Shown: piece by piece, positions 27,890-50,694 of the stretch
Layout: every line of letters begins with the position of its first letter
How positions within the stretch are numbered: position 1 is the stretch's first letter
DNA from: Octopus sinensis
Lineage: Eukaryota
Reading direction: 5' to 3'
Length of the DNA: 64,000 nucleotides
Assembly: GCF_006345805.1 (NCBI RefSeq)
Contig: NC_043015.1
Location: 41,230,001 to 41,294,000, forward strand
Made by a program: the position numbers and the translations under genes
Notes under the pieces: generated by a model
The model's input: the letters and a program-made list of their open reading frames with translations, nothing else
What the model was told of the DNA's origin: nothing
The model's database searches: none

Positions 27890-29237
27890 TCTGGTCAATC
27901 AAAGTACCTTGGATCGCAAGGCGGCCCGCTGTGCTTACCTTGGATCGTAGGGCGACCTGCTGTGCTTGAGGAGACCTGTTGAGTCAAGTACATCAACGTC
28001 AAAATAAAAATCAAATGGAAATTGTAGTTGTGATCCCCATACCAGTGGCACGTAAAAAGCACCATCTGATCGTGGCCGATGTCGGCGCAGCCTTGACTGG
28101 CTTCCATGCCGGTGGCATGTAAAAAGCACCATCTGATCGTGGCCAATGCCAGCGCAGCCTTGACTGGCTTCCATGCCGGTGGCACATAAAAAGCACCATC
28201 TGATCGTGGCCGATGCCAGCGCAGCCTTGACTGGCTTCCATGCCGGTGGCACATAAAAAGCACCATCTGATCGTGGCCGATGCCAGCGCAGCCTTGACTA
28301 GCTTCCATGCCAGTGGCACATAAAAAGCACCATCTGATCGTAGCCGATGCCAGCGCAGCCTTGACTGGCTTCCATGCCGGTGGCACATAAAAAGCACCAT
28401 CTGATCGTGGCCAATGCCAGCGCAGTCTTGACTGGCTTCCATGCCGGTGGCACATAAAAAGCACCATCTGATCGTGGCCAATGCCAGCGCAGCCTTGACT
28501 GGCTTCCATGCCGGTGGCACATAAAAAGCACCATCTGATCGTGGCCGATGCCAGCGCAGCCTTGACTGGCTTCCATGCCGGTGGCACATAAAAAGCACCA
28601 TCTGATCGTAGCCGATGCCAGCGCAGCCTTGACTGGCTTCCATGCCGGTGGCACATAAAAAGCACCATCTGATCGTGGCCAATGCCAGCGCAGCCTTGAC
28701 TGGCTTCCATGCCTGTGGCACATAAAAAGCACCATCTGATCGTGGCCAATGCCAGCGCAGCCTTGACTGGCTTCCATGCCGGTGGCACATAAAAAGCACC
28801 ATCTGATCGTGGCCGATGCCAGCGCAGCCTTGAGTAGCTTCCATGCCAGTGGCACATAAAAAGCACCATCTGATCGTAGCTGATGCCGGTGGCACGTAAA
28901 AAGCACCATCTGATCGTGGCCGATGCCAGCGCAGCCTTGACTGGCTTCCATCCCGGTGGCACGTAAAAAGCACCATCTGATCGTGGCCGATGCCAGCGCA
29001 GCCTTGACTGACTTCCATGCCGGTGGTATGTAAAAAGCACCATCTGATTGTGGCTGTTGTCAGTCTATTCTGGCCCCTGTGCCGGTGGCTCGGAGAAAGC
29101 ACCCACTACACTCTCGGAGTGGTTGGCGTTAGGAAGGGCATCCAACTGTAGAAACACTGCCAGATCAGACTGGAGCCTGGTGCAGCCTCCAACCCATGCT
29201 AGCATGGAAAACGGACGTTAAATGATAATGATGATGA
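27890..29237 (+). mobile_element. Non-autonomous retroelement with RTE-like 3' tail and internal tandem array
   Basis: 3' part GTTGGCGTTAGGAAGGGCATCC...CCCATGCTAGCATGGAAAACGGACGTTAAA(TGA)n is shared with 16325-16700 (-), 34665-35092 (+) and 41556-41905 (-). RTE affinity is an inference. Confidence 0.65.
28041..29105. repeat. 67-bp tandem array (about 16 units)
   Basis: Unit GCCGGTGGCACATAAAAAGCACCATCTGATCGTGGCCGATGCCAGCGCAGCCTTGACTGGCTTCCAT. GCACC recurs at 28059, 28126, 28193 ... 28863, 28903, 28970, 29037, 29099. Confidence 0.97.
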
Positions 29238-48589: not shown

Positions 48590-48958
48590 GATAAACACCT
48601 CACCGTCATTAACGCCTCACCATCATTAACGCCTCACCATCATTAACGCCTTACCGTCATTGATGTACTGCTGTCTTTAACACACTTCCGTTGTTAATGA
48701 CTTTCTGTTGGAAAACACTTCACCGTCATTAACACTTCACTGTCGTTGACATACTGCCGTCATTTATACATTGCTGCTGTTAATGCCTCACTATTGTCAA
48801 ACACCTCACTGTCGTCACGTGCCTCCCTGTCATTTAACATCTCACTGTCGTTAAATACCTCACACCGTCATTAATGCTTTGCCATCATTAACACACCGTC
48901 GTTCTTAATGTCTCACTGTTGTTAAATGCTTCACAGTCATTTAACATCTTGTTGTTAA
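48590..48958. repeat. Degenerate 17-19-bp minisatellite (CCTCACCGTCATTAACG-like)
   Basis: Near-perfect units at 48598-48660 decaying downstream. Confidence 0.8.
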
Positions 48959-49368
48959 AAAAAGTCCTTCCCCACAGACTAATGTTCAATGTTTGTAATA
49001 GCAGTCAAATCTCACTTTTATCATATCTTACCATCTGAAAAATGGAAGGACAGATAGGATAATGTAATTCTATATAGACTAAAAAAGCAAATGCCATGGA
49101 ATGCCTTTGGTAATTATCGGATCATTCAGTAATGACCAAACAACACATCTTCCTTACATCTGGTCTGAAATGAAAACCTGTATCCTATTAGTAGTTGTTG
49201 GGTTAACCAACAAAGGTTTTTTATCTTTTTATTGCTTGGTGAGGGCTTGTTATCCTAGCAGGGTTTGTTCCTTCTCTGGCCTGGCAGAATCCATGCCTTA
49301 TTCTGATTTTTTTCCCTTTTTTTTTTTAACTTCTAAGTTGCTGGGATATAAACAAACCAACACCAGTT

Positions 49369-49886
49369 CTATATTTAAGAGATGAGGAATTATATACATT
49401 ATTTACAATTAATATATATTTGTTCTCATCTTGTTTGTTGTTAACACAACATTTCGGCTGATATACCCTCCAGCCTTCATCAAGTGTCTTGGGGAAATTT
49501 CGAACCTGGGTTCTCATTCCTAAGGTATTTTTTGATGTTATCATCATCATCATCATTATTATGCAAGTCACTGCTTGGAACTGAACTTGGAATCTTGGGG
49601 TTAGTAGCCTGCACTTTTAACCGCTACACCATATGCTCACAGGCATATGGTGTAGCGGTTAAAAGTGCAGGCTACTAACCCCAAGATTCCAAGTTCAGTT
49701 CCAAGCAGTGACCTGAATAATAATGATGATGATGATGATGATGATATTGAAAAATACCTTAGAAATGAGAACCCAGGTTCGAAATTTCCCCAAGACACCT
49801 GATGAAGGTTGGAGGGTATATCAGCTGAAATATTGTGTTAACAACAAACAAAATAAGGACAAATATCCGTCAAATGTAAATAATAT
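49369..49886. mobile_element. Palindromic element with ~245-bp arms, each a tRNA-like head + Penelope-type hammerhead motif; 15-bp TSD
   Basis: Arms ~49395-49636 and 49643-49886 around loop TCACAG; flanked by AAACCAACACCAGTT at 49354-49368 and 49887-49901. Confidence 0.8.
49794..49839 (+). ncRNA. Degenerate minimal hammerhead-ribozyme-like motif
   Basis: GACAC-CTGATGA-A-GGTTG...CAGCT-GAAA-TATT-GTGTT. The mirror copy on - has a perfect GGCTG/CAGCC stem II but a TTGATGA core. Confidence 0.5.
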
Positions 49887-49948
49887 AAACCAACACCAGT
49901 TTTCAAGTAATGGGATACACACTCATCATATATTTATGTATGTATAAT

Positions 49949-50355
49949 AGGCGCAGGAGTGGCTGTGTGGTAAGTAGCTTGTTTACCAACCACATGGTTC
50001 CGGGTTCAGTCCCACTGTGTGGCACCTTGGGCAAGTGGCTTGTACTATAGCTTCAGGCCGACCAAAGCCTTGTGAGTGGATTTGAAAGACAGAAACTGAA
50101 AGAAGCCCGTCGTATATATGTATATATATGCGTGTGTGTGTTTGTGTGTCTGTGTTTGTCCCCCTAGCATTGCTTGACAACCGATGCTGGTGTGTTTATG
50201 TCCCCGTTACTTAGCGGTTCGGCAAAAGAGACCGATAGAATAAAGTACTGGGCTTACAAAAGAATAAGTCCTGGGGTCGAGTTGCTCGATTAAAGGCGGT
50301 GCTCCTGCATGGCCGCAGTCAAATGACTGAAACAAATAAAAGAGTAAAAAAAGAG
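49949..50355 (+). mobile_element. SINE family A, full length
   Basis: AGGCGCAGGAGTGGCTGTGTGG head to AAAAGAGTAAAA tail. Confidence 0.85.
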
Positions 50356-50694
50356 TATACTAGAGCTTCTTTCAGTTTCTGTCTATCAAATCCACAAGGC
50401 CTTATTTAGCCTGGGGCTTTAGTAAAAGACGCTTGCCAAAAGCACCACCCCGGGGGATTGAGCATAAAGCCATGAAGTTAGGAAGAAAGCCTTGTAACTT
50501 ATTCACTAAACCATGCTCTGGGTTTGAAAGTCATCTGAGATATTTGAAACTCAATCTCACCTGACAAATCTCTGCATATACAGGTGAAGGCTTTGTACAG
50601 GTATGAGCTGTATGGTAATACAGTCGTATCACAGGTAACATTATTTTGTGGCGAAGTCAAATGTTGCTTCAGTGGTCAGGTTTGATTCTGAGCT

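What the first reader, a model, noticed from the sequence alone, without database searches (positions are those of the whole stretch)
49354..49901. TSD-flanked palindromic element: back-to-back tRNA-like heads, each ending in a Penelope-type hammerhead motif
Seen: ~245-bp inverted arms around a 6-nt loop, inserted into a SINE-A remnant with a 15-bp direct repeat. Reading outward from the centre, each arm has a tRNA-like head (TGGTGTAGCGG A-box, GTTCAGTTCC B-box-like), then (ATG)n, then GACAC-CTGATGA-A-stem II-GAAA-..-GTGTT. GAAATGTT and GAAATATT in the two arms look like CpG decay of GAAACGTT. Known: Penelope-like elements carry minimal hammerheads in their terminal repeats and often form inverted arrangements. 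Inference: a Pol III-headed, ribozyme-tailed non-autonomous element mobilised by Penelope machinery, which is not a textbook SINE class. This copy is probably decayed.
Basis: partly seen in the sequence, partly recalled or inferred. Interest (0 to 1): 0.72.

Follow-up and report, generated by a model that had tools for sequence, protein, structure and literature searches.

The report
Penelope retrotransposon with tRNA-derived promoter head
This mirror-image repeat is two back-to-back end pieces of an abundant protein-coding jumping gene (a Penelope-like element) whose end repeat starts with a worn tRNA copy; most short copies begin exactly there, so that tRNA copy likely served as the element's RNA polymerase III promoter, which is untested.

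Summary
The palindrome, its 15-bp duplication, tRNA-like heads and minimal hammerheads are real. But the arm is not a separate SINE: it is the terminal repeat (pLTR) of a ~2.7-kb autonomous Penelope/Poseidon-type element (RT + GIY-YIG), following the ORF stop in 25 of 30 ORF-selected loci. Inversion, a ~31-bp tail on one arm only (41 of 44) and 10-14-bp duplications are textbook Penelope. Short and long copies share the same alleles, so no separate non-autonomous master is evident. The unusual part: the pLTR opens with a tRNA-derived segment, and 5' ends pile up 0-9 nt before it (36 of 89 insertions, none in the next 30 nt; roughly 15,000 versus 1,700 arms), as expected for a fixed, likely Pol III, transcript start. 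The 2.7-kb sense strand has no T4 terminator (P 0.035-0.07, weak). This copy is decayed in both hammerheads and B boxes. No report found in five paper searches; Dfam/Repbase and the 1994 octopus SINE paper could not be checked. This scan already noted the same family many times on other DNA.

The parts
49318..49368 (-). older host SINE remnant, left part (continues at 49902)
   Evidence: in-silico empty site aligns across the junction to 10 SINE copies of the window
49354..49368 (.). left target-site duplication, 15 bp; its last 5 nt also match the end of the tail
   Evidence: family boundary at 49364 in reads and contigs of other copies
49364..49394 (-). Penelope 'tail' (~31 nt = first bases of the element body), on the left arm only
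   Evidence: same sequence follows the 5' pLTR of full-length copies; on exactly one arm in 41 of 44 two-armed insertions
49395..49636 (-). left arm = pLTR copy
49443..49488 (-). left minimal hammerhead, core C3 changed to U and 15.2 CpG-decayed; fails the descriptor
49564..49638 (-). left tRNA-derived head (A box, decayed B box)
49637..49642 (.). fold-back centre; derives from the six bases upstream of the head in the long element
   Evidence: 606 genomic loci share this junction, control 0; commonest spacer equals the element's upstream sequence, 21 of 50
49641..49715 (+). right tRNA-derived head; A box 49648-49658, B-box-like 49692-49702 (decayed in this copy)
49716..49745 (+). (AAT)n/(ATG)n tract (left arm: about 49538-49563)
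49643..49887 (+). right arm = pLTR copy without tail
49794..49839 (+). right minimal type I hammerhead; core intact, stem II weakened (G10.1-C11.1 lost); predicted cut after 49834
49887..49901 (.). right target-site duplication
49902..49925 (-). older host SINE remnant, right part

Best explanation
The element is a decayed two-armed insertion of the terminal repeat of a 2.7-kb protein-coding Penelope-like retrotransposon, and the tRNA-derived head at the start of that repeat likely acted as an RNA polymerase III promoter that fixed where the element's RNA began. Shown: pLTR identity, ORF, tail, duplication, fold-back junction, pile-up of 5' ends at the head. Inferred: RNA starts 7-9 nt before tRNA position 1 in a 5' pLTR and reads into the ORF; the element's protein nicks the target and starts reverse transcription at one of two sites just inside the ORF (with or without tail, as shown in vitro for Anolis PAc); copying back to the RNA 5' end gives the ~250-280-nt SINE-like unit; the cDNA end folds back on a small inverted repeat at the head, or meets a second cDNA, giving the head-to-head pair. 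Long copies would come from priming at a second, downstream pLTR-ORF junction. The hammerhead is the ordinary pLTR ribozyme, predicted to work only as a dimer or with protein.
For: Head follows the ORF end in 25 of 30 EN-selected loci; pLTR precedes the body in 8 of 10 loci reaching the 5' end, single 798-codon frame with DKG, GSP, YVDD motifs, RVT_1 hit, GIY-YIG look-alikes at 0.96. 5' reach: 36 of 89 hammerhead-anchored insertions stop at -9..+15, 0 at -39..-10, 17 go further over 650 nt; 41 of 50 head-started ends lie at -10..+3, on the far side of the small hairpin, not at its 3' foot. Exact 21-mers: 7752 hammerhead, 3847 head, 952 just upstream, about 21,000 / 15,000 / 1,700 arms after correcting for match rate. 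Head-tRNA similarity. No T4 run on the sense strand of the 2702-nt consensus versus 31 A4 runs. No diagnostic allele between 31 long and 69 short arms. Two RT start sites and tail: PMC11167929.
Against: No direct evidence of Pol III: three RNA-seq runs of a coded organism show reads in both directions and no start or end pile-up. T4 absence is weak (P 0.035 synonymous shuffle, 0.07 Markov, 0.004 mononucleotide) and had no Pol II Penelope control. A fixed start does not name the polymerase; D. virilis Penelope starts in its pLTR from a LINE-like TATA-less promoter (PMC2377424). A hairpin sits at the same place and 9 of 50 head-started ends are fold-backs on it. An uncapped Pol III RNA would need cap-independent translation, untested. 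The upstream match rate is partly inflated by how loci were chosen.
Confidence: 0.6

Rival explanations
1. Ordinary Pol II-transcribed Penelope; the tRNA-like segment is a passive relic of a captured SINE, and copies end at the head because reverse transcriptase stalls or snaps back at the hairpin there (or because a Pol II start happens to lie there).
For: Imperfect ~10-bp hairpin spans the head start in the long element; 606 exact fold-back junctions; head is no cloverleaf and (AAT)n behind it looks like a SINE tail; no RNA start pile-up; known Penelope promoter is LINE-like (PMC2377424).
Against: Ends form a wall at -10 and tail off downstream, whereas a structural block should stop RT at the 3' foot of the stem (+9 to +17); 41 of 50 head-started ends are not exact fold-backs; the wall lies where a tRNA leader would begin; A and B boxes are intact in the consensus.
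Confidence: 0.3
2. One reading: an independent non-autonomous, Pol III-headed, hammerhead-tailed SINE with its own master copies, mobilised in trans by Penelope.
For: Head-started arms outnumber ORF-linked arms about ninefold; tandem head-to-tail units exist (L007, L018) and could act as sources.
Against: The same head is part of the autonomous element; variants at +62, +154 and +239 occur in both classes at like frequencies and divergence is alike, 0.047 vs 0.045-0.053; most copies carry the ORF-derived tail or its boundary; no head-only SINE among 30 head-anchored loci.
Confidence: 0.08
3. A DNA-transposon MITE with long terminal inverted repeats.
For: Long inverted arms with a flanking duplication.
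Against: Duplications vary, mostly 10-14 bp; arms unequal (tail on one); only 3 of 50 such junctions have two full heads; arm is linked to an RT ORF.
Confidence: 0.01

Closest known systems
Penelope/Poseidon-type EN+ PLEs: PAc of Anolis (PMC11167929, parts 1-2 of 4 read), D. virilis Penelope (PMC2377424, passages), architecture in PMC8557442 (passages)
   Same: Single RT + C-terminal GIY-YIG ORF, pLTRs in partial tandem, inverted 5'-truncated partner, 30-40-bp tail on one end, hammerhead in the pLTR overlapping the ORF start.
   Different: pLTR opens with a tRNA-derived A/B-box segment plus (AAT)n, and copies start there; the passages read describe no such head (D. virilis promoter is LINE-like).
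Minimal hammerheads of metazoan PLEs (PMC4209133, parts 1-2 of 4 read)
   Same: Type I, 5-bp helix I, 6-bp helix II, extra nucleotide between 9 and 10.1, G10.1-C11.1, palindromic 15.2-16.2.
   Different: None seen; cleavage untested here.
Sm-alpha / Sj-alpha of schistosomes (PMC6765202, PMC2770079, passages; original papers not held)
   Same: tRNA-related Pol III head joined to a hammerhead in a short high-copy repeat, so the pairing itself is known.
   Different: Described as non-coding tandem SINE-like units; here the unit is the terminal repeat of a coding element.
TRIMp3: Cassandra, Helenus, Ajax (PMC10886601, abstract and passages)
   Same: Small-RNA-derived Pol III promoter placed in a retroelement's terminal repeat, probably by SINE capture.
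   Different: Non-autonomous LTR elements with PBS/PPT and 4-5-bp duplications; no hammerhead, no ORF.
Metazoan non-LTR retrozymes (PMC7229834 passages; bioRxiv 10.64898/2026.07.22.740005 part 1 of 5 and passages)
   Same: Short hammerhead units related to PLE pLTRs.
   Different: Defined as head-to-tail tandem arrays; 'tRNA' and 'Pol III' do not occur in the preprint's main text; here mostly solo or inverted copies.

Membership tests
EN+ Penelope-like element (parent family) | One ORF with RT and C-terminal GIY-YIG endonuclease | tested here: met
   798-codon frame; DKG/GSP/YVDD; RVT_1 E 1e-7; GIY-YIG clusters at 0.96, Pfam on 15-32% of members. Pfam itself gave no GIY-YIG hit.
EN+ Penelope-like element (parent family) | pLTRs: 3' end repeated upstream of the ORF | tested here: met
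   8 of 10 loci reaching the 5' end; 25 of 30 at the 3' end
EN+ Penelope-like element (parent family) | Inverted 5'-truncated partner and 30-40-bp tail on one end | tested here: met
   inverted partner in 52 of 89; tail on one arm in 41 of 44
EN+ Penelope-like element (parent family) | Placement in the Penelope/Poseidon clade by phylogeny | not tested
   clade name rests on domain order and recalled motifs; no tree with named references
Minimal type I hammerhead | CUGANGA and GAAA cores, helices I and II, NUH site, palindromic helix III stub | tested here: met
   consensus fits, 1 in 100,000 by chance; 36 of 136 arms intact; N7 is the only non-CpG core position with a common second letter. Window: right arm fits loosely, left fails.
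Minimal type I hammerhead | Self-cleavage | not testable with these tools
   needs in vitro assay; no read ends at the site
tRNA-derived SINE | tRNA-related head with A and B boxes | tested here: met
   score 64 vs 34.6 +- 3.7 against 43 tRNA sequences of 7 amino acids; best tRNA-Arg(TCT), parent not settled
tRNA-derived SINE | Non-autonomous family with its own masters, distinct from the partner element | tested here: not met
   unit is the autonomous pLTR; no diagnostic alleles
tRNA-derived SINE | Transcribed by Pol III | not testable with these tools
   indirect only: 5'-end wall, no T4
Non-LTR retrozyme | Head-to-tail tandem units each with a hammerhead | tested here: not met
   this locus is head-to-head; tandem pairs are a small minority
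MITE / TIR DNA transposon | Fixed-length duplication and symmetric TIRs | tested here: not met
   duplications of 10-14 bp and asymmetric arms

The most novel reading that the evidence does not exclude
A protein-coding retrotransposon transcribed end to end by RNA polymerase III: a Penelope element that captured a tRNA promoter into its terminal repeat, purged T4 terminators from its 2.7-kb sense strand, translates an uncapped (possibly hammerhead-trimmed) RNA, and acts as its own SINE, spawning some 15,000 head-started copies and long hairpin insertions.
Probability: 0.3. Interest if true: 0.8.

Novelty: new variant of a known kind. Interest (0 to 1): 0.5.

Why it matters
It blurs the SINE/partner divide: one element supplies both the enzyme and SINE-like offspring, and shows a route from an autonomous Penelope to Pol III + hammerhead repeats of the Sm-alpha type. 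The 5'-end wall also maps a PLE transcript start in vivo and fits the two internal RT start sites found in vitro. If the coding RNA is a Pol III product, it would be a rare natural case of translation from a Pol III transcript. As a single locus it is an ordinary decayed insertion, and repeat annotators would mislabel it as a SINE or MITE.

Tried and rejected
Rfam: only hairpin-shaped miRNA models below gathering score, no tRNA or hammerhead hit, in the window or in the best copy. ARAGORN on the window: none. Second B-box-like word at +127 is not tRNA-like (score 29 vs 26.6 +- 3.1). Pfam found nothing in the EN part. Metagenome scan for relatives gave one weak 18-residue hit, not used. A protein search for sister Penelope families without the head returned only this family, 30 of 30 loci, so no control for the T4 test and no covariation test of the hammerhead. 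Sequencing runs: no RNA holder listed on record; 20 rows under five coded organisms hold the word set. Raw RNA reads: both directions alike, no start/end pile-up, library type unfit for short or 5'-OH RNAs. No contig or read showed the empty site. Monomer folding is not better than shuffles (z -1.5 to 0.4), as expected for a minimal hammerhead. My early doubt about the host SINE remnant was wrong. Ten loci seen twice or in segmental duplicates were dropped before the counts; samples are the first listed places on contigs C1-C2, not a genome-wide draw. Papers not held: Ohshima and Okada 1994, Lunse et al., Ferbeyre et al. 1998. No supplements were read; the repeat library behind PMC13282606 may already hold this family.

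Full report
Observation. The window holds inverted arms at 49395-49636 and 49643-49887 (91% alike over 245 nt), a 6-nt spacer and a 15-bp direct repeat at 49354 and 49887. Joining the flanks in silico restores a piece of the window's abundant SINE across the junction, so the host remnant and the duplication are real. The window lies on contig C19 of a 2.72-Gb animal genome; that it is an octopus is my inference from recalled repeat content and an earlier AI note, not a call result. Positions below count from the first G of the right arm (49643 = +1); tRNA position 1 is -1.

What the arm is. The arm is a high-copy repeat. In several copies the head is preceded by the end of a reading frame. Searching with that upstream piece gave 30 loci, of which 25 have the head right behind the ORF end and 27 some part of the arm. 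Aligning 52 longer loci gave a 2702-nt element with one 798-codon frame holding DKG, GSP and YVDD motifs, an RVT_1 match and a C-terminal domain whose nearest Atlas clusters are GIY-YIG proteins (0.96); seven database relatives at 52-68% identity carry RVT_1 and/or PF26215. In 8 of the 10 loci printed as reaching the 5' end, the same arm sits directly before the body. The arm is therefore the pseudo-LTR of an autonomous Penelope-like element. The 31 nt that extend only the left arm (49364-49394) are the first bases of the body, the 'tail' described for PLEs (PMC8557442, passages). It is on exactly one arm in 41 of 44 two-armed insertions, and 52 of 89 insertions have an inverted partner. Exact duplications of 10 bp or more flank 24 of those 44, against 1 of 43 shifted controls, mostly 10-14 bp, which excludes a fixed-length DNA-transposon duplication.

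Hammerhead. The consensus fits a strict minimal type I descriptor that 1 of 100,000 random sequences fits; 36 of 136 arms are intact, and N7 is the only non-CpG core position with a common second letter. All features listed for PLE minimal hammerheads in PMC4209133 are present. In the window the left motif has C3 changed to U and the right has lost the G10.1-C11.1 pair, so both are likely weak or dead. A frame from an ATG at +116 runs through the ribozyme into the ORF; the Anolis PAc ORF also starts inside its hammerhead (PMC11167929), so this is not new. Rfam does not detect the motif.

Head. Against 43 tRNA sequences of this genome (7 amino acids only) the consensus head scores 64, shuffles 34.6 +- 3.7 (max 50 of 1000), an ORF control 29; best is tRNA-Arg(TCT), but the parent is not settled. 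A and B boxes are intact in the consensus and the B box is damaged in both window arms. It no longer folds as a tRNA. None of 30 head-anchored loci is a head-only SINE: each has other Penelope sequence in one arm.

Where copies begin. Among 89 insertions picked by a hammerhead word, blind to their 5' end, 30 stop at or after the (AAT)n tract, 6 inside the head, 36 at -9..+15, none at -39..-10, and 17 further upstream over 650 nt; among 21 head-anchored ones 14 stop at the head. At base resolution 41 of 50 head-started ends lie at -10..+3 (+-2-3 nt). Genome-wide exact 21-mers number 7752 (hammerhead), 3847 (head) and 952 (just upstream); corrected by match rates of 34/91, 19/75 and 41/74 this is about 21,000, 15,000 and 1,700 arms (the last rate is somewhat inflated by locus choice). 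A wall with ends tailing off downstream is what run-off at a fixed RNA start gives; it lies 7-9 nt before tRNA position 1, where a tRNA leader would start (recalled). A hairpin spans the same place and 606 loci carry the exact fold-back junction, so stalling or snap-back is a real rival, but a block should stop the enzyme at the 3' foot of the stem.

Separate SINE? Comparing 31 ORF-linked with 69 head-started arms, no column is diagnostic (lowest P 0.004, at a CpG next to the junction, among about 260 columns); the variants at +62, +154 and +239 occur in both, and non-CpG divergence is alike. PMC11167929 shows that a PLE protein starts reverse transcription at two internal sites just inside the ORF; applied here (inference), an RNA beginning at the head of a 5' pLTR yields the short unit with or without tail directly from the coding transcript, which explains the shared alleles. 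It also makes the wall a mark of the autonomous element's start.

Pol III for the whole element? The sense strand has no T4 run in 2702 nt against 31 A4 runs; P is 0.035 by synonymous-codon shuffle, 0.07 by Markov, 0.004 by base shuffle. This is weak, the strand is A-rich, and no sister family was found as control. RNA-seq reads of a coded organism cover the element in both directions with no start or end pile-up, which neither supports nor tests the idea well. The one mapped Penelope promoter is LINE-like (PMC2377424, passages). I put Pol III initiation at the head at about 0.6 and a Pol III-made coding RNA at about 0.3.

This locus. Only 3 of 50 fold-back junctions have two full heads; most fold back for 8-24 nt and jump. 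The window's arms share 8 of 9 derived changes in the head but 1 of 17 further out (Fisher P 5e-5), so the 98% inner symmetry likely reflects later arm-to-arm correction, not youth.

What is known. Pol III head plus hammerhead is known from Sm-alpha (PMC6765202, PMC2770079, passages); small-RNA promoters in terminal repeats from TRIMp3 (PMC10886601); pLTR-derived non-autonomous units from retrozymes. Paper searches for a tRNA or Pol III promoter in a Penelope pLTR listed nothing that describes it, judged from listings and the passages read. Dfam, Repbase, supplements and Ohshima and Okada 1994 were not available, so the family may already be catalogued. Earlier AI notes of this scan reached the same reading on other DNA (17 findings in at least 4 genomes hold the search words); they are not independent support. 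I formed the pLTR reading and ran the T4 test before seeing them, and took PMC11167929 and the cut-site deletion lead from them.

Verdict. A real, decayed Penelope pLTR palindrome; the family is a new variant of a known kind because of its tRNA-derived head. Interest 0.5.

Noticed in passing
window 49540-49739: Inner 97 bp of the two arms share 8 derived changes (1 private) while outer parts share 1 (16 private): likely arm-to-arm conversion; the 3 other full palindromes sampled show 2-3 shared changes each.
   Followed up: partly
family positions +182 to +187 (window equivalent 49831-49836): Small, mostly 3-nt, deletions at the predicted hammerhead cut site in about 42 of 326 arms versus a median 1.5% elsewhere: slippage in a GT-rich repeat, a source variant, or a record of cutting and rejoining; not separated.
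   Followed up: partly
family positions -22 to +17 (e.g. L058, L060): The long element keeps a degenerate inverted repeat across the ORF-end/head junction, resembling the ~20-nt fold-backs common in short copies; the head may have been captured by fold-back and jump.
   Followed up: partly
L061-L184 sample: About 17 of 89 insertions begin in or next to long (AAT)n tracts: template jumps at the internal tract or insertion into microsatellites.
   Followed up: no
L058:1550-1820: RNA reads of the coded organism include a diverged endonuclease-region variant with a shared loose end at 1819, perhaps a sister element or an expressed chimera.
   Followed up: no
window 49947-50350 and at least 8 other places: Full copy of the window's dominant SINE with a central dinucleotide tract; part of it recurs inverted at 50365-50395.
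   Followed up: no
window 28037-29056: 67-bp tandem array, about 13 copies at 96%, with open frames of 250-390 codons on the minus strand.
   Followed up: no
window 48601-48949: Degenerate 17-18-bp minisatellite 400 bp left of the element.
   Followed up: no
L206, L207, L209, L210; L248-L250: Identical insertions repeated in segmental duplicates; one near-full-length copy recurs at 97-98% on three small contigs.
   Followed up: no
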